A DNA stretch of 64,000 nt from an uncultured Actinomycetes bacterium (GTDB lineage Bacteria > Actinomycetota > Thermoleophilia > Gaiellales > JAICJC01). The DNA is taken from assembly GCA_963731515.1 (NCBI GenBank), contig CAVSVU010000017.1, positions 861,164 through 925,163 on the forward strand, in the 5' to 3' direction. The notes under the pieces are model-generated. The model was not told where the DNA came from. It saw only the letters and a list, made by a program, of their open reading frames with translations, and made no database searches. Both the position numbers and the translations under genes were made by a program. Of this stretch, positions 17,736 through 60,781 are shown piece after piece; position 1 is the stretch's first letter, and every line of letters begins with the position of its first letter.

Positions 17736-18829
17736 CGGGCCAGGGCCAGGAGCTCGGTCGCGATCCGCTCGCCGGCGTCGGGCCGCGCCAGCCGCCGGGC
17801 GGCCTCCGCCATCCCCGCCAGCCGGTCGGGGTCGGCGAGCAGCGCATCGACCTCGGTCGAGAGCCGGACGGCGGTCAGCTCGTTGTCGGCGATCACGATC
17901 GCCGCGCCGCCGTCGGCGATGAACTCCGCGTTGCGCGACTGGTGGTCGGCGGTCACGTTCGGCGACGGGACGAGGATCGCCGGCCGGCCGGCGGCGGCGA
18001 TCTCGAACACCGACCCGCCCGCCCGCGAGACGACCAGGTCGGCGGCGGCGAGGATCGGGCCGAGCCCGGCGGTGTACGGCAGCACGCGGTAGTGCGGCGC
18101 GGCCCGCCCCGACGCCTGGGTGAACTCGCGCTCGCCGGTGATGTGGACGACGGTGAAGCCGGGATCGTCCGCCGCCCACGCGGCGGTGGCCGCCCGGTTC
18201 ATCGTCGTCGAGCCCAGGCTGCCGCCGACGACGAGCACGATCCGGCGGTCGGCGGGAAGGTCGAACTCGCGCCGGCCCTCCTCCGCCGTCGCGTCGAGCA
18301 CCGCCCGGGGCACCGGCCGACCGGTGAGCTGGTAGCGCGGCGGCCCGAGGTCGCCGATCGGGAAGGCCAGGAACACCCGGCGCGCGAACGGCGCGGCCAT
18401 CCGGTTGGCGAGGCCGAGGTGCGCGTCGACCTCCATCAGCGCCGCCGGGATGCGCATGCCCGCCGCCGCGGCCAGCATCGGCCCGGCCACGTACCCGCCC
18501 CCGCCGAACACGACATCGGGGCGGACGCGGCGGAGGATGCGCGCGCACGCGGCCGGCGCGACGGCGGCCAGGCCGAGCCCGCGCACGAGGCCGAGCGACG
18601 GCCGCCGCGGGAGGCCGGAGACGTGGTAGGTGTGGAGCGGGTAGCCGGCGGCGGGGACGAGCCGGGACTCGATCCGCTCGGCCGTGCCGGCGAACACGAC
18701 GTCGGCGCCTCTAGCCGTGAGCTCGGCGGCGACCGCCAGCGACGGCACGACGTGGCCGGCGGTTCCCCCGGCTGCGATCAGCACCCGCGGGCTGCGGCCG
18801 GGGTCGCTTGCGGCTTTCGGCGGTGTCAT
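17732..18829 (-). CDS. murG: Undecaprenyldiphospho-muramoylpentapeptide beta-N-acetylglucosaminyltransferase
   Basis: AGGTAGHV, GGGGYV, GGSLGS, HQSRNA. Confidence 0.96.
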   Translation of the reverse strand: MTPPKAASDPGRSPRVLIAAGGTAGHVVPSLAVAAELTARGADVVFAGTAERIESRLVPAAGYPLHTYHVSGLPRRPSLGLVRGLGLAAVAPAACARILRRVRPDVVFGGGGYVAGPMLAAAAGMRIPAALMEVDAHLGLANRMAAPFARRVFLAFPIGDLGPPRYQLTGRPVPRAVLDATAEEGRREFDLPADRRIVLVVGGSLGSTTMNRAATAAWAADDPGFTVVHITGEREFTQASGRAAPHYRVLPYTAGLGPILAAADLVVSRAGGSVFEIAAAGRPAILVPSPNVTADHQSRNAEFIADGGAAIVIADNELTAVRLSTEVDALLADPDRLAGMAEAARRLARPDAGERIATELLALAR

Positions 18830-43727: not shown

Positions 43728-43852
43728 CACTCCGGCCTGCACAGGCGGTAGCCGACGCCCCACTCGTTGGCGAGCCAGCCGGCGGGGGAATGGACGCGCA
43801 GCTTCTGGCGCAGCCGGCTGGCGTGCGAGTCGAGCGTCCGGGTGCGGCCGGG
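43727..43852 (-). pseudogene. 3' remnant of an OmpR/PhoB-family response regulator, truncated by the island
   Basis: My translation: PGRTRTLDSHASRLRQKLRVHSPAGWLANEWGVGYRLCRPE-TGA (winged-helix end). An in-frame TAA at 43855-43853 and unrelated sequence lie upstream. Confidence 0.85.
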
Positions 43853-44039
43853 TTAGGAGATAAGGGGTTCCGAAACCGGCCTGCCCGCTGGTCGGGAGCC
43901 GGTGCCGTCCTAAACAACGCTCCGAGGATTCACGCGTGGCGCGCGCAACGCAAGACTTTGGTAGGCCCGACCTAGGAACAAAGTCGCTGGGTGGCCGCGC
44001 GCGTGGGCAGCGGAGCCGATGTGGTTGCCCTGGCTGGCT

Positions 44040-52345: not shown

Positions 52346-53878
52346 ATGCCCGCCCAACCTAGCGCACCGCTGACCCACGACGACGCCGGGGCGCGCGCCC
52401 ACGAGAGCCGCTTCCCGGACAATGTGACGGGTGTTCGGGTCGTCGACGGGTACGGCGTCAAGATCTCGGTCAGGCGCCGCATGCTCGTCGTGGAGGACGG
52501 GATCGGCCGTCAGCGCCGACAGACGACGCATGCCCGGGCGACCTGCCCGTTCCGCCGACTGCTCATCCTCGGCCACACCGGCTACATCTCCCTCGAGGCC
52601 ATCCGCTGGTGCTGGGACCTCGGGATCGGCATCGTCCACATCGACGCCGACCGCAACCTCCTCCTGACCAGCGCCCGCCGCGACGTCGCCACCAACCGCC
52701 TACGCCGCGTACAAGCCTTCGCCCCATACACCGAGCTGGGCGTCGAGGCGGCTCGGCTCGTGATGCGATCGAAGCTGGCCGGCCAGCAGGACGTGGCGCG
52801 CAATCTGAGCGGCGGTTGTGGCGACGCTGCGGTATCGACGATCGGCGACGCCCTCAGGGCCGTCGAGGCCGCGTCCACGCTTGACGACGTGCTCGCTGCC
52901 GAGTCGACCGCGGCGTTCGCATACTGGGACACGTGGAGCCGGCTCCCACTCCGCTTCGCCAGTCGTGGCGGCCGCGAGGTGCCGGGTCACTGGGCCACGT
53001 TCGGAATCCGGTCGTCGCCGATCTCGGGGACACGCCGCCACGCAGCCACCCCCGCGAACGCGCTCCTGAATTACGCCTATGCCCTTCTTGAGGCGGAGAC
53101 CACGCTCGCACTTCACGCCTCGGGACTCGACCCTGCACTGGGGATCTGGCACCGCGATGAGGCTGGCCGCGACTCGCTCGCGCTGGATGTCATGGAGGCG
53201 GCACGCCCGGCCGCCGATCGTCTTGTCCTACGGCTCCTGACCGACGGCGCGTTGCGTCCACGCGACTTCTACGAGACCCGCCGGGGGGCGTGTCGTGTTC
53301 TCCCGCCGCTCTCGCACCACCTCGCCACCTGGATGTCCACACTCGCAGGCGCAATCGAGCCGACCGTGCTCCAGCTGGGTCGGCTGTTCGACCGCACCGT
53401 CGACGTGGAAGACGCCGGCGGCGTCCTGTTTGCGCGGCCTCGACGCTCCGAGCATCGGCGAGCGTCGGTACGGAGCACCTGGCCGGGCCAACACGTCATC
53501 CGGGCCTGCCGGGTGTGCGGCGTCGTTCTCCCGGTCGGATCCCGAGACGCCCACTGCGAGAACTGCGCGCCGCACCGCCCGCCAAGCGCCGACGCCGCGC
53601 ACCGCGACGCCGGTGCCCGCGTCACTCAAGCCCGGCGTGACAGTATCCGCCGTCAGCGTGTCGCGGCACTCGAATGGGATCGCCACAACACCCGACCCAA
53701 CCCGGCCATCTTCCAGGTCGAGATCCTGCCGCACCTCCAGGGCATCAGCTACTCGGCGCTAGCACGAGCAACCGGACTCAGCCGCCGCTATACGAAACTG
53801 ATAGCGACCGGCCAGGCGACCCCACACCCGATGCATTGGGCCGCGTTCCGATCCGCGGGCCAGGCGCGCAGCATCTGA
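52346..53878 (+). CDS. cas1: Stand-alone Cas1 (casposase) with C-terminal Zn finger and HTH
   Basis: ISLEAIRWC, AESTAAFAYW (E), NALLNYAYALL, GLDPALGIWH (H), SLALDVMEAARP (D/E), then CRVC..CENC and an HTH; GGAGG RBS. Confidence 0.93.
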   Translation: MPAQPSAPLTHDDAGARAHESRFPDNVTGVRVVDGYGVKISVRRRMLVVEDGIGRQRRQTTHARATCPFRRLLILGHTGYISLEAIRWCWDLGIGIVHIDADRNLLLTSARRDVATNRLRRVQAFAPYTELGVEAARLVMRSKLAGQQDVARNLSGGCGDAAVSTIGDALRAVEAASTLDDVLAAESTAAFAYWDTWSRLPLRFASRGGREVPGHWATFGIRSSPISGTRRHAATPANALLNYAYALLEAETTLALHASGLDPALGIWHRDEAGRDSLALDVMEAARPAADRLVLRLLTDGALRPRDFYETRRGACRVLPPLSHHLATWMSTLAGAIEPTVLQLGRLFDRTVDVEDAGGVLFARPRRSEHRRASVRSTWPGQHVIRACRVCGVVLPVGSRDAHCENCAPHRPPSADAAHRDAGARVTQARRDSIRRQRVAALEWDRHNTRPNPAIFQVEILPHLQGISYSALARATGLSRRYTKLIATGQATPHPMHWAAFRSAGQARSI

Positions 53879-54064: not shown

Positions 54065-54517
54065 TTGAGGCGCGCTCTGATTGTCACCACGGTAGCCTTG
54101 GCGATGAGCATCGCGACCGTAAATTCAGCCGAAGCCGCTCCGAAGTGGCCAGCCCGTTGCACGACGTGGAAATGTGTGAACGCCCACCTGAACAGCCTGC
54201 ACGCGACGGTCCTGGCGCAGAAGACCAGAATCACGAAGGTGAACACAAACCTCAACGGATTTTTCGGCTGTCTGTACGAAGCCCCAGTGACCGAGTATGG
54301 CGACCCCTCAGGGACATTCGGATATCTGTGGACGGACGATGGCAACCCGGCAGACGCCTATGCCACCAGCGGGTTCGACTACACAAATAGCGGCAATATC
54401 CCAGACTTCTGGGCCTTCGTCGACAATTGCAGTCGCAACACTCCAGCTCGGGTCGGGCAGCAGACCCTGAGTCGGGGCGGATACTCCACGCATCTGCTCG
54501 CCGGCTCGCGCAGGTAA
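54065..54517 (+). CDS. Secreted hypothetical protein (4 Cys)
   Basis: Signal peptide ending AEA; AAGGGGAA RBS-like sequence. Confidence 0.7.
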   Translation: MRRALIVTTVALAMSIATVNSAEAAPKWPARCTTWKCVNAHLNSLHATVLAQKTRITKVNTNLNGFFGCLYEAPVTEYGDPSGTFGYLWTDDGNPADAYATSGFDYTNSGNIPDFWAFVDNCSRNTPARVGQQTLSRGGYSTHLLAGSRR

Positions 54518-54685: not shown

Positions 54686-55120
54686 TCAGCAGACCTTGTA
54701 GCCGAGTGATGTCCCCTTGTACGCGCAGCTGTCGCGGATGGTGCCTGTGCGCTTGACGAGCGTCGCCTTGTCGCCGGTGTTGTTCCAGATGTAGTTGCCC
54801 GATCGCCAGTAGAGGTTCGCCGCGGCGTTGGTGCCCGAGCCGGTGTGAACTCGAACGGAGCAGCCGCCACACAGCGAGAACTTGGGGAACGTGAAGCGGT
54901 GGTGTGACTGGTCATGCAGCCGCCACCCAGTCAGCGCCTTGGCGCGCTTGCCGTTGTTGTGGACGGTCACCCACTCCTTGTTCAGGCTGAGATTGGATCC
55001 TGTATCTGGGCCAGGCGGGTTGTAGCGGACGAACGAGATCAGGATCTCCGCACTTGCGACCGAGGGGAATCCGAGCAAGAAGACGACCACGAGCGGGACG
55101 ACGAGCCGACGCACGACCAT
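54686..55120 (-). CDS. Secreted lamin-tail-domain (LTD) protein
   Basis: Signal peptide, YNPPGPD..EWVTVHN..LTGWRL..FTFP..VHTGSG..IWNNTGD. Confidence 0.85.
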   Translation of the reverse strand: MVVRRLVVPLVVVFLLGFPSVASAEILISFVRYNPPGPDTGSNLSLNKEWVTVHNNGKRAKALTGWRLHDQSHHRFTFPKFSLCGGCSVRVHTGSGTNAAANLYWRSGNYIWNNTGDKATLVKRTGTIRDSCAYKGTSLGYKVC

Positions 55121-55239
55121 GCTACGCACCTCCCGAGGTGACGAGGGATCGCCAGACCGTAGCTCACCCGAATGGGGCACGCCACCTCGCGATCCCACTC
55201 CTAGGATCGCGGCTGTCCCGACCGACGGAGAGGTGATCG

Positions 55240-55617
55240 GTGCCGCTGTTCAACAAGCAGACTGAAGAAGACAAGCAAGCCGACCGCCGACGTAAAGAGC
55301 AGGAGAAGGCGGAACGCGCCGTCCAGGAGGCCGCCGCCCGGCAACTCGAGGAGGAGCGTAACGCAGCCGAGCAGGCAGCCTACGCGACCTATCTCGCGGC
55401 GATCCCCAAGTTCGAATACGAGGTGCTTACCCTCTCCTCCACCATCTGGGCCAGCGCCGGCAAGTTCGACGGCAGTGGCCTCCAAGAGACCCTCAATCAG
55501 CACGCCGCCGAAGGGTGGCGGGTTATCGAGATCGCCATGAGCGGCAAAATCGAGAAAGCGTTCAGCGCCGACCGAAACGACATGTACGTCGTCTTCGAGC
55601 GGCCGGGCCGCCGCTGA
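55240..55617 (+). CDS. DUF4177-like protein
   Basis: Coiled-coil N-terminus, FEYEV..LNQHAAEGWRV..VFERP. Confidence 0.75.
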   Translation: MPLFNKQTEEDKQADRRRKEQEKAERAVQEAAARQLEEERNAAEQAAYATYLAAIPKFEYEVLTLSSTIWASAGKFDGSGLQETLNQHAAEGWRVIEIAMSGKIEKAFSADRNDMYVVFERPGRR

Positions 55618-55989: not shown

Positions 55990-58900
55990 GTGGCAGTGGA
56001 GCTTGATGCGGGGCAGGCGAGAAGGTTCCAGAGCCTGGTGGCCTCCGCGGAGTTTGAGAGTGAGGAGCGCGCGTACAAGGTCGCTCTCCACGAGGTGCTT
56101 CTAAGGATCCTCGACCCTGGCGCCCTGGATCAGCCCGAGTCAGCCCAACGCCTTGCTGATTTCTTCCGCGACCGGCTTGACCTGGCCGAGCTCGGGTTCT
56201 CAAGCGAGGATGCTGATGCGATCGGGTCGGCTGCAGCCCCTCTTGGGGGGATACGTGGCGCCTTCGCGAACCTTTGCGGGGGGCGGTGGGGCGTCAATAA
56301 CTTCGTCTGGATTCCAGGCGCGATCGACGCTGGCCTTGGACAGCCGACTCTTGAGGCGTTCGCGCGCCTCGTCGACGAGGGCCGGCCGCTCGCTGATCGG
56401 GTCGACCAGTTCCGTGTCGATCTCCGTGAGGTCGAGGAGCGAGCCGCTGGTGGATCGGGGTGGCAGGAGCAGTGGCATGTCATCGATATCCAGCTGGCGT
56501 TCGTCGCGGCGCTCCTAGGAGCGTTGGATCCGCAGCGCTACACCTTCTACCAAGCGACTCTCCTTCGGGAGGCAGTCGAGCGGTACGGCGGTGAATGGCC
56601 CAAGGGCAGCGCGGGGACGCGGTACGCGGCGATTTGTGAGTTCGTCCAGGCTGTCCGGTTTCAACTCGAGCAGCACGGCGCGTCGACAAGGGACTTGATC
56701 GATGTCCAGAGCTTCCTCTTTCTCACAACTCAGGAAGGCAGGGGTGAGGAGCGGACGCCACGTGTCTGGATCGTCCGCGCCGGTCAGCACGGAGAAGGCG
56801 AAGAGGTCGCGCTCAGCAACGACGCCGCAGTCATTGGCTGGCGCGAGCTGCCAGATCTAAGCGGCTATCCGGATTTCCCCGCCATCAAGGCCCTGTACAC
56901 CGAGCAGTTCCCGACGGACTCGCCGCAGACAATCAGCAAGCAGGCGTCCCAGATCGATCGGTTCGTCCATGAGTTGCGCGTCGGAGACTTCGTGCTGCTC
57001 CCGCGGGTTCTGGAGCCTGAAGTTGTTGCTGTGGGTGAGGTCGTCGGTGACTACGAGTACCACCCGGAAGCACCGTTCTTCGACGCCGACGCAGTTCACA
57101 CACGTCCCGTCGACTGGTTGGACACCGCCGTGCCGCGGTCATCCTTCGATCGCGAGTTGCGCGGCCGGCTCGGCCTCACCGGGACGGTCGCCCAAATCCA
57201 CCTCTCAGACACCTCCGACCGGGTCCGCAGAGCGCTCGGCGAACCGAGCACGGAGCAGCAATCGGGGGTGAGTTACTGGTGGGTCAACCAGGGCAAGTCT
57301 TTTGACCGCTCGCGAACAGGTGGCTACCTGTGGGCGCCCCGCGAAGGCGCCGGTGGCCGCCAATTCGCCCACTGGCTCAACATGACCAAGGTCGCCGTCG
57401 GCGACATCGTCCTCCACTATTCGAGCGGCTATCTCCGTGCCGTCGGCCGCGTCACTCACGAAGCCGTCGAAGCGGACCGCCCAACTTCTCAAGACCTGCA
57501 GTGGGACGAGCGAGGCTGGGTCGTTCAACTTGACTACCTGGATCTCGACCCCACGATCCCGCTGGAGACGATCCCGGTGGAATGGCGAGAATCTGAACGA
57601 GGCCCGTTTGCCCGCACTGGCCAAGTTAATCAGGGCTATCTGTTCCCGCTCTCGACGGCGTTCGCCGAGCAGCTCGCGGGACGCTTCCCCCAGGTGCAGG
57701 CCGCGTTCGACGAAGCTGATGGCGCACCACGACGAGCCCACCTGTGGTGCATCTACGCCGGCCGTGGCGTCGCGGCGAACCTCGACATAGGACGCAAAGC
57801 CGGCGTCTGGGGCGTCCGCAAGCCCGACCGACTCCGAGACCTTCACCAGGGCGACGAGGTGCTCCTGGTGCACGACCTGACCAGCGACGTCAGCCCCGCA
57901 CCGCCCGGGTTTCCACGCGTGGGACTCCAAGATTTCCACGGCGTCGCAACGGCAGTGCTCCGTGCCACCATCACCGGCGAACCATTCACCGACGACACGC
58001 CGATCTGGCCCGACGCCACGTACCCGGATCGATTCCGTTTCACCGAGCAGTCGTTCGACCACCAAGTCCCCGTCGACGAACACCACCTCGAGACCGATGT
58101 CCTGGATGCGATCCGCCGATCAGCCCTCGACGGGGGATGTCCGATCTTGGCGGGATCACTCCCCGACCTACCAGCTGGGTACGTCGAGCCGGAGTTCGAG
58201 ACGATCGAAGCGCAGATCAAGGCTGAGGGCCTTGAGATGTCGCCGCAAACGCTGCGCCGCTACCACCTCTCCCTGAAGACGCGCGGCTTCGTGATCCTGT
58301 CCGGGCTCAGCGGCAGCGGCAAGACGTGGCTCAGCCAGGCCTACGCCAACGCGGTCGAGGCCCGACCGCTGCTGGTCGCGGTCGCGCCCAACTGGACGAC
58401 GAACGAGGACCTGCTCGGCTACTGCAACCCGCTCGACCAGACAGCTATGTGGACACCCAGTTCAGCGCGTTCCTCCGCGAGGCGGCACGCGAACACGAAC
58501 AGGCTGCGCTCCACGAGCGCGCCGCGTTCCCGTATCACCTGATCCTGGACGAGATGAACCTCGCGCGCGTCGAGTACTACTTCGCGAAGTTCCTCTCGGA
58601 CGATGGAGGTCCGCGCCCGCGGCGACGACGCGTACGATCGAGCTCGCGCCGGGCGAGCACGTGCGACTGCCGCCGAATCTGTACGTTCATCGGCACGGTC
58701 AACGTCGACGAGACGACGCACGGCTTCGCCGACAAGGTCTACGACCGCGCCCAGCTGCTCGAGCTGACCATCACCGAGGACGACATCAACAAGCACCTCG
58801 GCGAGCGTCGACTACGCCGAGGCCGTGCTCGCGGTCTGGAAGGCCGTCCACGACCTCGCGCCGTTCGCCTACCGGACTCTTGACGAGATCACCGCCTACA

Positions 58901-59115
58901 TCACCCAAGCCGAGCTCATGAAGGTGCCCTGGCAGGAAGCGCTCGACGAGCAGCTCGTCCAGAAGGTCCTGCCGAAGCTGAAGGGTGCCAATCCGGATAT
59001 CAAGACGGTGCTCGAACGCCTCATCGAGGTATGCGCCGAGTACCCTCTCACCAGGACGAAGGCGCAGCGGATGCTCGACGACTACCGCCGGTATGGGTTC
59101 ACCTCCTACTTCTAG
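55990..59115 (+). CDS. mcrB: McrB-like AAA+ GTPase with three EVE/PUA-like domains (several indels at 58440-58810)
   Basis: GLSGSGKT, VAPNWT, LILDEMNLARVEYYFA, GTVNVDETT, QKVLPKL; ends GFTSYF-TAG. Confidence 0.88.
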
Positions 59116-60781
59116 CCTCCGCTTCCGCAACCAGGACGGAGCCGACCTGGCCACGCCGGAGGAGTGGGTTGAATGCTGGCTCCAAATCCCCGTCGATCGC
59201 GACCGGGTCGACGAGGTCGTCGTCCGCCGGCAAGGACAACAACTCCCCGTGCTCGTTCGAAGGCTTGGCGATGAGTGGGTCGTCGTCTCACAGTGGCCGC
59301 GATCGTCAACGGGCACTTACCTCGTCGAAGCGGCTACGGAGAACCAGACATGGCAGACGACCGTCACGATTGAGCCCCAGAAGATCACGCCCGCCGCGTA
59401 CCGTCGACTCGTCGACGATCTCCAACTCGACCTTCCCGCGGCCGTCGCGATCGCGCTTCAACAATGCGGCGCTCTCACCGGCGTCGAGATTCTCCCGCCC
59501 CAAGATGCCACCGTCGAGGCCGAACTTCTCCGCCTCCGAAGAGCCATCACCGGATCCGAAGAGCGCCCCGGACTCGCGACGCTCCTTCCTCAAATCGCCA
59601 GCGACCCACATGAGCAACTCGTCCACGACGAGGTCTGGGTCGACCGTGCGCGCGTCCGCCGCCTGCGCCCCGGCGGGCTAGTCGCCGCCGTCGCCAAACC
59701 CAACAACCTCGACGACGACCACAGGCCCAAGCGTGCTCCCGACGCCCGAGTCATCCACACCGTCGATGTCTACGAGAACCGCCTGCTTGACGTCTACGAA
59801 CGGCAAGTCGAGCTGCGCTTGCTGCGCATTCTCCGTGCACACTCAACTCCGGCGGACGCTCGGCGCGAGGCACACGACCTGCTGCACGCGCTCACCATCG
59901 CCCGCCGCCAGGCCAGCTTCCTCGACCAAGTCACACGCCCCGCCACACTCACCGCCCGCGTCACGATGGTGCTGCTCAGACGCCCCGCATACCGCGCCAT
60001 GTTCGAGGGATACCTGGAGCTGCACCGGGCAGTCCGTGTCCGACTCGACCATCCCGCGCTCGAATCCCCACTTGAAAACCTCCCAGCGCTCTACCAGCTC
60101 TGGGGCACCCTCCGAATCATCGCATCAACCATCCGAGTCGCAGCGACCCACGGATACGCCGTCGATGAGCGCCAGCTGGTCAGGCACGACACGGAGGGCC
60201 TCTTCATCCAGATAGCCCCTGACGGAAAGCCCGCGGTCACCCTCCACGACCCTGAGACCGGCATGCGCGTCACCCTCACGCCCGAGCGGAGCTTCACCCG
60301 CGCATCCCACCCGATCCGATCCGTCTCCTTCAAGCAACGACCCGACATCGTCATCGAATTCCAGGCCACAGGTTCCGCTGAACCGAGGCTGGTGGTGTTC
60401 GACCCCAAGTACAAGCTCGATAGCGAGCTCGGACTGTCCGACCCAGCCGAAACCGATGGTTCGCTGGAGCCCGTTCCAGCCGGACGTCCGAAGAAGGTCG
60501 ACATCGACAAGATGCACGCCTACCGCGACGCCATCCGCGGGCCCGCAGGCACCAGAGTCGTCGACTACGCCGCCATCCTCTACCCAGGCACAACCGTCGA
60601 ATATGGAAACGGTGTCGCAGCTGTCCACGCGTACCCCGGGGCGGCCGCAACCCTGGATCAACACGTCGAGCAACTCCTGGCGAACCACCTTCGGGGCGCG
60701 ACGCCTGGTGGCGAACGGTCACCCGCGGGCAATCATCCGAGAAACTGCGCTGTGGGCGGGCCCCCGATTTCACAGACGTGA
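59093..60781 (+). CDS. mcrC: McrC-like DUF2357 + PD-(D/E)xK nuclease
   Basis: VDVYENRL, LYQLWG, RPDIV, FDPKYK, DIDKMHAYRDAI; overlaps the mcrB stop. Confidence 0.88.
   Translation: MGSPPTSSLRFRNQDGADLATPEEWVECWLQIPVDRDRVDEVVVRRQGQQLPVLVRRLGDEWVVVSQWPRSSTGTYLVEAATENQTWQTTVTIEPQKITPAAYRRLVDDLQLDLPAAVAIALQQCGALTGVEILPPQDATVEAELLRLRRAITGSEERPGLATLLPQIASDPHEQLVHDEVWVDRARVRRLRPGGLVAAVAKPNNLDDDHRPKRAPDARVIHTVDVYENRLLDVYERQVELRLLRILRAHSTPADARREAHDLLHALTIARRQASFLDQVTRPATLTARVTMVLLRRPAYRAMFEGYLELHRAVRVRLDHPALESPLENLPALYQLWGTLRIIASTIRVAATHGYAVDERQLVRHDTEGLFIQIAPDGKPAVTLHDPETGMRVTLTPERSFTRASHPIRSVSFKQRPDIVIEFQATGSAEPRLVVFDPKYKLDSELGLSDPAETDGSLEPVPAGRPKKVDIDKMHAYRDAIRGPAGTRVVDYAAILYPGTTVEYGNGVAAVHAYPGAAATLDQHVEQLLANHLRGATPGGERSPAGNHPRNCAVGGPPISQT

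What the first reader, a model, noticed from the sequence alone, without database searches (positions are those of the whole stretch)
55990..60781. McrBC-like system whose GTPase carries three different tandem EVE/PUA-like reader domains
Seen: before the AAA+ module are an N-terminal helical domain (ending DLIDVQSFLF) and three dissimilar beta domains: VWIVRAG..IGW..GDFVL, YWWVNQG..GGYLWAP..GDIVLHY and LWCIY..NLDIG..GVWG..GDEVLL. It is coupled to a DUF2357/PD-(D/E)xK partner. Known: McrB homologues swap N-terminal modified-base readers (EVE, YTH, SRA, DUF3578). Inference: a type IV system able to read several DNA modifications at once.
Basis: partly seen in the sequence, partly recalled or inferred. 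Interest (0 to 1): 0.62.

Follow-up and report, generated by a model that had tools for sequence, protein, structure and literature searches.

The report
McrBC restriction operon with three PUA-type readers
This is a modification-dependent (type IV, McrBC-type) restriction operon whose motor protein carries three unrelated-looking modified-base reader domains in a row. That is a rare combination of known parts rather than a new kind of system, and the gene is broken in the assembly by what are most likely sequencing errors.

Summary
A McrB-like AAA+ GTPase gene (55990-59115) overlaps a McrC-like gene (59093-60781; DUF2357 + PD-(D/E)xK).

Ahead of its AAA+ module, McrB carries four parts:
- **N:** a 254-aa helical domain of unknown kind.
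- **A (DUF8426):** its AlphaFold model matches only YTH domains.
- **B:** a clear homologue of the 5mC/5hmC-flipping EVE domain of VcaM4I (PDB 6YEX, E 8e-18), with the pocket residues kept.
- **C:** a small unnamed family that matches the archaeal EVE proteins PH1033 and MJECL36 by both profile and fold.

- The AAA+ core is interrupted by five or six single-base indels within about 380 bp. The same kind of break hits murB, murD and murE, so these are most likely assembly errors, not a pseudogene.
- Stacked readers are the rule in this McrB clade (NxD-motif branch), and relatives mix ScoMcrA_N, sulfur-binding, Pua-like, EVE and DUF8426 modules.

Reading several modifications at once is plausible (ScoMcrA is a precedent) but untested. 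The operon lies in a ~22-kb Cas1-bearing insertion and is absent from 39 of 40 related genomes.

The parts
55990..59115 (+). mcrB-like gene (AAA+ GTPase with a long N-terminal array). GTG start; about 1040 aa if the indels are discounted. As assembled it is read in frames 1, 3, 1, 2, 3, 1.
   Evidence: It is 60% identical over the full length to the intact P0002 (1042 aa).
55990..56751 (+). N-terminal helical domain (aa 1-254), kind unknown, with invariant GGRWGVNNFVWIPGA-like core.
   Evidence: No Pfam, NCBIfam, PHROG or PDB sequence hit. Found only in this McrB clade.
56752..57261 (+). Domain A (aa 255-424): DUF8426 (PF28530), the N-terminal module of PADLOC candidate PDC-S02. YTH-like PUA-superfamily fold.
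   Evidence: PADLOC PDC-S02 E 8e-38. Precomputed Pfam PF28530 = DUF8426. AF2 pLDDT 95.8. All top-50 PDB fold hits are YTH domains, E from 2e-4, TM 0.45-0.57.
57262..57720 (+). Domain B (aa 425-577): VcaM4I-type EVE domain, the clade's near-universal module next to the AAA+.
   Evidence: PDB 6yex/6yjb/6ykf/6ymg, E 8e-18 for the single sequence and 6e-29 for the profile. VcaM4I W22, P24, W82, Q128 and Y130 are kept; T11->S and E15->S (with PMC7897488). Present in 86 of 87 pooled relatives.
57721..58194 (+). Domain C (aa 578-735): small unnamed EVE-like family (WG, GD and WPD..YP.RF motifs).
   Evidence: Only 92 representatives among 1.84e9 proteins. Profile hits PDB 2p5d at E 5.7e-5 and 1wmm at E 7e-5. 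AF2 pLDDT 93.4. Fold hits are PH1033 and MJECL36 (TM 0.55-0.60), then YTH domains. Fused elsewhere to HNH, MrcB_N, T5orf172/MUG113 and AAA_5.
58195..59115 (+). McrB-type AAA+ GTPase module: Walker A GLSGSGKT (58303-58326), Walker B LILDEMN (in frame 3), sensor motif N-V-D-E (NxD type), C-terminal lid.
   Evidence: AAA_5. PDC-M26A. The P0002 AAA+ part hits Thermococcus gammatolerans McrB 6ut3 at E 8e-6, with NVDE aligned to NTAD. NxD branch as described in PMC11090510.
58430..58810 (+). Patch of five or six single-base indels (four clear +1 insertions, plus one +2 or -1 site) that break the AAA+ core. The net change is a multiple of 3, so the last 100 aa are back in frame 1.
59093..60781 (+). 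mcrC-like gene: DUF2357 plus PD-(D/E)xK nuclease (RPDIVIE...FDPKYK). Intact, 562 aa.
   Evidence: 57% identical to the L001 McrC over its full length.

Best explanation
This is a two-gene McrBC-type, modification-dependent (type IV) restriction system of the NxD-motif branch, carried as cargo inside a ~22-kb Cas1-bearing insertion.

Shown here:
- McrB has the order helical domain N, YTH-like DUF8426 (A), VcaM4I-type EVE (B), PH1033-like EVE (C), then the AAA+ GTPase.
- McrC has DUF2357 plus an intact PD-(D/E)xK motif and overlaps mcrB by 23 nt.

Inferred by analogy with E. coli and T. gammatolerans McrBC and with VcaM4I:
- McrB hexamers dock on foreign DNA through their reader domains.
- Domain B flips a modified cytosine (5mC/5hmC type) into a P/W/Y pocket, with a Gln wedge.
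- McrC-stimulated GTP hydrolysis drives translocation, and McrC cuts the DNA.

Further inferred:
- B is the primary reader, because it is the near-constant module of the clade.
- A and C are accessory pockets that widen the range of modified bases recognised (OR logic). This matches their occurrence elsewhere as N-terminal modules of stand-alone nucleases.

The five or six indels in the AAA+ core are most likely assembly errors, so the system is probably functional in the organism.
For: - **McrBC identity:** AAA_5, DUF2357 and PDDEXK_7 hits. The AAA+ part matches the T. gammatolerans McrB structure. The genes overlap by 23 nt.
- **Domain B:** matches VcaM4I at E 8e-18 (single sequence) and 6e-29 (profile), with the pocket and wedge residues conserved (PMC7897488).
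- **Domain C:** profile and fold hits to EVE proteins. In other proteins it is fused to HNH (12 of 65), MrcB_N (10), GIY-YIG-like T5orf172/MUG113 (4) and AAA_5 (20). In relatives, a canonical Pfam EVE sits in the same slot between B and the AAA+.
- **Domain A:** high-confidence model whose PDB neighbours are all YTH domains. It is the N-terminal module of PADLOC single-gene candidate PDC-S02 and matches part of a type II REase model.
- **A, B and C are distinct families**.
- **Relatives stack readers:** ScoMcrA_N, DNA-SBD_ScoMcrA, Pua-like, EVE and DUF8426.
- **Self-compatibility:** no C5 DNA methyltransferase (PF00145) in the host genome.
- **Assembly errors:** the same kind of frame break occurs in murD, murE and murB and in a glycosyltransferase. 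There are about 566 candidate breaks genome-wide and they are clustered.
- **Accessory distribution:** absent from 39 of 40 related genomes; the fortieth (G004) has only a partial match to the AAA+ part. The region has low GC, 0.65 against 0.72 for the genome. It lies inside a split response-regulator gene together with a solo Cas1.
Against: - No binding or restriction data exist for A, C or any NxD-type McrB (PMC11090510 says none has been characterised).
- A and C resemble known readers only at superfamily level (TM about 0.5-0.6, 10-17% identity).
- The local Pfam EVE model does not score C, and scores B only at E 0.25.
- VcaM4I E15, which hydrogen-bonds the cytosine N4, is Ser here, so the base preference of B may differ.
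- Six indels in 380 bp with none in the other 4.4 kb is far denser than the genome average of about 1 per 7 kb.
- The function of the 254-aa N domain is unknown.
Confidence: 0.62

Rival explanations
1. There is only one true DNA-modification reader (B). A and C do not add specificities. Instead they raise avidity for densely modified DNA (AND logic) or gate the enzyme by autoinhibition until modified DNA is bound, as the EVE domain and linker do in VcaM4I.
For: B is the constant module and sits next to the AAA+ in the minimal relatives (B-AAA+, e.g. P0052). In VcaM4I the EVE domain plus linker block the nuclease (PMC7897488). A and C have only superfamily-level similarity to known readers.
Against: Domains A and C occur on their own fused to nucleases (HNH, GIY-YIG-like, PDC-S02), where they must be the only targeting module. 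The free shuffling of modules among relatives looks like specificity swapping.
Confidence: 0.2
2. The operon is a dead remnant. The indels in the AAA+ core are real mutations that inactivated a self-toxic or useless restriction system after the element arrived.
For: Five or six indels lie within 380 bp of the catalytic core while the rest of the operon is clean. That density is far above the genome-wide average. Type IV systems are often lost when the host acquires a modification.
Against: Identical single-base frame breaks hit the essential genes murB, murD and murE. Breaks are clustered across the whole assembly. The shifted segments keep full codon-usage signal and homologue-level identity with no stops. 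McrC and the 815-aa N-terminal part are intact. No C5 methyltransferase is present to create self-toxicity.
Confidence: 0.2
3. The system targets modified RNA rather than DNA, as proposed for the CoCoNuT members of the same NxD branch, with the YTH-like domains reading m6A-type RNA marks.
For: The NxD motif places it in the branch that contains the predicted RNA-targeting CoCoNuTs. The closest fold neighbours of A and C are m6A-RNA-binding YTH domains.
Against: There are no coiled coils, HEPN, cold-shock or SmpB-like domains. McrC keeps a canonical PD-(D/E)xK DNA nuclease motif. B is a homologue of a DNA 5mC/5hmC reader. Relatives carry the DNA sulfur-binding domain. The YTH domain of T. gammatolerans McrB reads 6mA in DNA (PMC7897488, PMC7641849).
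Confidence: 0.06

Closest known systems
E. coli K-12 McrBC and Thermococcus gammatolerans McrBC (PDB 6UT3-6UT8)
   Same: Two overlapping genes. The AAA+ GTPase has Walker A and B motifs and a sensor Asn motif. McrC has DUF2357 plus PD-(D/E)xK. An N-terminal base-flipping reader precedes the motor.
   Different: The sensor motif is N-V-D-E (NxD branch, never characterised) rather than NxxD. The single DUF3578/ADAM or YTH reader is replaced by a 735-aa array of one helical and three PUA-type domains.
VcaM4I (EVE-HNH modification-dependent endonuclease, PDB 6YEX/6YJB/6YKF/6YMG)
   Same: Domain B is homologous over the whole EVE domain (E 8e-18) and keeps W22, P24, W82, Q128 and Y130, the residues that sandwich the flipped 5mC/5hmC and fill the gap in the DNA stack.
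   Different: It is fused to a McrB motor instead of HNH. E15 (the contact to cytosine N4) is Ser and T11 is Ser. It is flanked by two further PUA-type domains.
EVE-McrB fusion proteins (Bell, Wolf & Koonin 2020, PMC7641849) and the NxD branch of McrBC (Bell et al. 2024, PMC11090510)
   Same: Same class: EVE-superfamily readers fused to McrB GTPases, 'with additional domains often present'. The NxD motif is followed by Glu.
   Different: The specific order N-A-B-C-AAA+ was found in only two sequences (the window and P0002). It is not a CoCoNuT: it has no coiled coil and its McrC nuclease is intact.
ScoMcrA (SBD-SRA-HNH type IV endonuclease)
   Same: It is a precedent for one type IV enzyme carrying two different modification readers (phosphorothioate and 5mC/5hmC). 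Its N-terminal and sulfur-binding modules occur in relatives of this McrB.
   Different: It is a single-chain HNH enzyme without a GTPase motor. The window's protein has neither the SBD nor the SRA domain.
PH1033 / MJECL36 (UPF0310, archaeal stand-alone EVE proteins; PDB 1WMM, 2HD9, 2P5D)
   Same: Best profile and fold matches of domain C, which shares the WG, GD and YPxR motifs.
   Different: 14-17% identity and TM 0.5-0.6. Domain C has an extra C-terminal helix and is a fusion module of restriction enzymes.

Membership tests
McrBC type IV restriction system | McrB-type AAA+ GTPase with Walker A, Walker B and the sensor N..D motif | tested here: met
   GLSGSGKT, LILDEMN and TVNVDE are all present. 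AAA_5 hit. Match to the T. gammatolerans McrB structure at E 8e-6 through the intact homologue. The motifs lie in different frames of the assembly.
McrBC type IV restriction system | Adjacent McrC with DUF2357 and a PD-(D/E)xK nuclease | tested here: met
   DUF2357 E 4e-9 and PDDEXK_7 E 5.5e-23. PD...D-P-K motif present. 23-nt overlap with mcrB.
McrBC type IV restriction system | Uninterrupted mcrB reading frame | tested here: inconclusive
   Five or six indels at 58430-58810. The same kind of break occurs in murB, murD and murE, which points to assembly error.
McrBC type IV restriction system | GTP-dependent cleavage of modified DNA only | not testable with these tools
   Needs biochemistry or phage assays.
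NxD branch of McrB GTPases (Bell et al. 2024) | One-residue deletion turning NxxD into NxD, usually followed by E or D | tested here: met
   N-V-D-E aligned to N-T-A-D of T. gammatolerans McrB. Definition read. No phylogeny was made.
CoCoNuT systems | Long coiled coils on McrB or McrC, plus tandem or HEPN nucleases and RNA-binding domains | tested here: not met
   The Pfam and PADLOC scans show none of these. McrC has an intact PD-(D/E)xK motif.
EVE domain, VcaM4I type (domain B) | Sequence homology to the EVE domain of VcaM4I, with the flipped-base pocket (P24, W82, Y130) and wedge Q128 | tested here: met
   E 8e-18 and 6e-29. All four residues plus W22 are conserved; E15->S (PMC7897488).
EVE / UPF0310 (domain C) | Significant match to EVE-family sequences and the PUA-like barrel fold | tested here: met
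   Profile against PDB: 2p5d at E 5.7e-5 and 1wmm at E 7e-5. Foldseek top hits 1wmm, 2p5d and 2hd9, probability 1.00, TM 0.49-0.60. The Pfam EVE HMM itself did not score it, so membership is at superfamily or distant-family level.
YTH-like PUA-superfamily domain (domain A = DUF8426) | YTH/PUA-like fold with an aromatic pocket | tested here: inconclusive
   The fold is supported: pLDDT 95.8, and all 50 best PDB hits are YTH domains, E from 2e-4, TM 0.45-0.57. There is no sequence-level hit. Two invariant Trp residues (W30, W122 of the domain) could form a cage, but no coordinates were available to check.
Modified-base reader function (A, B, C) | Preferential binding of modified over unmodified nucleic acid | not testable with these tools
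   Inferred from homology (B) and from fusion contexts (A; C).

The most novel reading that the evidence does not exclude
One McrB hexamer works as a multi-specific sensor. The three unrelated pockets would each read a chemically different mark: B a 5mC/5hmC-type cytosine, YTH-like A a methylated adenine, and C another hypermodified base. The clade-specific 254-aa helical domain would be a fourth, new kind of DNA-mark or regulatory module. A single NxD-type McrBC, spread by a casposon, would then restrict phages with quite different DNA chemistries.
Probability: 0.25. Interest if true: 0.6.

Novelty: new member of a known kind. Interest (0 to 1): 0.36.

Why it matters
If the three pockets have different specificities, this clade would be a natural library of combinable modified-base readers on one motor. 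That would be useful for understanding how type IV systems keep up with phage DNA hypermodification, and as a source of new binding modules for epigenetic mapping. Two candidates stand out: DUF8426, and the small domain-C family that has no Pfam entry. It would also be a first handle on the uncharacterised NxD branch of McrB GTPases. As it stands, it is a rare combination of known parts, found in an error-prone assembly.

Tried and rejected
- **Family scans:** the local Pfam gave nothing for N, A or C and only E 0.25 to EVE for B. NCBIfam gave nothing for McrB or McrC. PHROGs gave only one weak unknown family for A.
- **Domain A:** its profile had no PDB sequence hit; the only hits were chance picornavirus VP1 matches at E > 0.1.
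- **N domain:** no PDB hit, and no short or stand-alone homologues beyond fragments.
- **Frame-break counting:** a first heuristic frame-switch counter over-called (3414 events) and was replaced by a 7-state HMM (566 events). That count still contains some true gene junctions, e.g. ftsW/murG at 18804.
- **Repeats:** an inverted-repeat search of 43000-64000 found no terminal repeats above chance. The right end of the insertion lies beyond the window.
- **Recent duplication of A, B and C:** rejected. Profile-profile comparison aligns only the GD hairpin.
- **CoCoNuT membership:** rejected. There are no coiled coils and no RNA modules.
Full report
**What is there**

By homology the gene ends at TAG 59113-59115. 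A second gene starts at ATG 59093, 23 nt before that stop, and ends at 60781.

Pfam gives AAA_5 for the first gene, and DUF2357 (E 4e-9) plus PDDEXK_7 (E 5.5e-23) for the second. The second protein is 57% identical over its full length to the McrC partner of the closest homologue and keeps the PD...D-x-K motif (RPDIVIE...FDPKYK).

The AAA+ part of the intact homologue P0002 matches the solved McrB of Thermococcus gammatolerans (6UT3, E 8e-6). Its sensor motif N-V-D-E aligns to N-T-A-D. That is the 'NxD followed by E' variant that Bell et al. 2024 describe for a large McrBC branch in which no member has been characterised. It is not a CoCoNuT: it has no coiled coil, HEPN or RNA-binding modules, and the McrC nuclease is intact.

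**The gene is broken in the assembly**

The reading frame changes five times between 58430 and 58810 (1->3->1->2->3->1). This follows from alignment with the intact, 60%-identical 1042-aa homologue P0002 and its DNA in L001, and from a codon-usage scan.

Four of the breaks are clear single-base insertions, none of them in a homopolymer. The first is either two single insertions or one deletion. The net change is a multiple of three, so the last 100 residues return to frame 1. The shifted pieces contain no stops and keep homologue-level identity.

I therefore asked whether the assembly as a whole has such breaks:
- rpoB, rpoC, dnaK and gyrB are intact.
- murD (~20520), murE (~24963) and murB (~16302) in this same window are each split between two frames in the middle of conserved sequence. 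A glycosyltransferase is split at ~1522 and ~1606.
- A 7-state codon HMM finds about 566 candidate breaks in 3.9 Mb of coding sequence. They are clustered: 13% of neighbour distances are under 500 nt, against 3% expected.
- Earlier notes of this scan say the same.

Essential cell-wall genes cannot all be dead. The breaks are therefore most likely consensus errors of a long-read metagenome-assembled genome (25 contigs, 91% complete), and mcrB should not be called a pseudogene. I keep about 20% for a real inactivation, because six indels in 380 bp is far above the average density.

**The N-terminal array**

Domain shuffling among homologues sets the borders: N is aa 1-254, A is 255-424, B is 425-577, C is 578-735, and the AAA+ module follows.

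- **Domain B.** This is the clearest case. Alone it hits the EVE-HNH endonuclease VcaM4I (6YEX/6YJB/6YKF/6YMG) at E 8e-18, and as a profile at E 6e-29, over the whole EVE domain. According to the VcaM4I paper (PMC7897488), the flipped 5mC/5hmC is sandwiched by P24, W82 and Y130. Q128 fills the gap in the DNA stack, and W22, T11 and E15 contact the Watson-Crick edge. In the window P24, W22, W82, Q128 and Y130 are conserved, while T11 and E15 are both Ser. B is present in 86 of 87 pooled relatives and is the only N-terminal module in the shortest ones.
- **Domain C.** It belongs to a small family of 92 representatives at E <= 1e-3 among 1.84 billion proteins, and no Pfam model hit it. Its profile hits the archaeal UPF0310/EVE proteins MJECL36 (2P5D, E 5.7e-5) and PH1033 (1WMM, E 7e-5), sharing the WG, GD and YPxR motifs, and more weakly YTH domains. 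An AlphaFold model (pLDDT 93.4) has the same proteins as best structural neighbours (TM 0.49-0.60), followed by dozens of YTH domains. In other proteins the domain is fused to HNH (12 of 65), the E. coli-type McrB reader MrcB_N (10), GIY-YIG-like T5orf172/MUG113 (4) and AAA_5 (20). This is the fusion pattern of a targeting module of modification-dependent nucleases. In three relatives a canonical Pfam EVE sits in exactly this slot between B and the AAA+.
- **Domain A.** This is Pfam DUF8426 and the N-terminal 160 residues of the PADLOC single-gene candidate PDC-S02 (E 8e-38). It has no sequence-level match to any solved structure. Its model is very confident (pLDDT 95.8), and all 50 best PDB neighbours are YTH domains (E from 2e-4, TM 0.45-0.57). 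The family has two invariant tryptophans.
- **Relationship among A, B and C.** Profile-profile comparison aligns only the short GD hairpin (probabilities 9%, 1.7% and 74%). They are three separate families of one superfamily, not recent duplicates.
- **Domain N.** The 254-aa helical domain has no hit in Pfam, NCBIfam, PHROGs or PDB sequences and occurs only in this McrB clade. It remains unexplained.

**How unusual is it?**

The exact order N-A-B-C-AAA+ was found only in the window and in P0002. B-C-AAA+ occurs in at least five further proteins.

Stacking readers is the rule in this clade. Relatives combine ScoMcrA_N, the phosphorothioate-sensing DNA-SBD_ScoMcrA, Pfam 'Pua-like', EVE, DUF8426 and B in many orders, with up to four or five modules. 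The literature already notes that EVE-McrB proteins often carry additional domains (PMC7641849). ScoMcrA (SBD-SRA-HNH) is an experimentally studied type IV enzyme with two different readers (PMC7461809).

**Context**

- The operon lies in a low-GC stretch (0.65 against 0.72 for the genome).
- That stretch is an insertion that splits an OmpR-type response-regulator gene. The C-terminal piece is at ~43750-43870, and the N-terminal piece is about 1.8 kb beyond the window's end.
- The insertion also holds a solo Cas1 (TIGR00287, E 7e-31). Earlier notes call it a family 3 casposon. I confirmed only the split gene and the Cas1.
- Of 40 related genomes, none has the operon and one has only a partial AAA+ match.
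- The host genome has no C5 DNA methyltransferase (PF00145), so a cytosine-methyl reader would not attack self DNA.

**Mechanism**

What is shown is the domain anatomy and the homologies. The following steps are inferred:
- The hexameric McrB docks on modified DNA through its readers.
- B flips a modified cytosine.
- McrC stimulates GTP hydrolysis and translocation, then cleaves.

Whether A and C add specificities (my preferred reading), add avidity, or act as regulators cannot be decided here.

**Verdict**

The claim that the system reads several modifications at once is reasonable but unproven. The system is a rare combination of known parts in a known, very modular family, recorded in an assembly that breaks the gene artificially. 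Interest is modest.

Noticed in passing
window 16302, 20520 and 24963 (- strand); 1522 and 1606 (+ strand): murB, murD, murE and a glycosyltransferase are each split between reading frames inside conserved sequence. Genome-wide there are about 566 candidate frame breaks, and they are clustered. The assembly is rich in indels, so apparent pseudogenes in it are unreliable.
   Followed up: yes
window 52346-53878 (+): A solo Cas1-like gene (TIGR00287, E 7e-31; 510 aa with a C-terminal extension) lies 2 kb upstream of mcrB. Earlier notes call the element a family 3 casposon.
   Followed up: partly
window ~43750-43870 (-) and contig C17 about 1.8-2.4 kb past the window end (window-equivalent 65842-66372, -): An OmpR-type response-regulator gene is split. 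The receiver and the start of the winged helix (ending ...FRSQGRTRTG) are on the right. The end of the winged helix (TRTLDSHASRLRQKL...GVGYRL) is on the left. This brackets a ~22-kb insertion that contains the McrBC operon.
   Followed up: partly
window 55990-56751: A 254-aa helical domain with a strongly conserved GGRWGVNNFVWIPGA core has no detectable relative outside this McrB clade. Its function is unknown.
   Followed up: partly
L001 6195-6560, L002 63-674, L005 1239-1973: A DUF3761 gene lies just upstream of the McrB homologue in three unrelated metagenomic loci. In L001 and L002 a 336-aa Pol-beta-palm-like nucleotidyltransferase gene lies between them. This may be a conserved neighbourhood; neither gene was looked for in the window.
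   Followed up: no
window 54686-55198 (-), 54065-54517 (+), 55240-55617 (+): Small genes lie between Cas1 and mcrB. Two have signal-peptide-like N-termini; one of these resembles a lamin-tail-type domain (from memory only). The third is a 125-aa charged-helix protein directly upstream of mcrB. None was analysed.
   Followed up: no
I did not check it.
   Followed up: no
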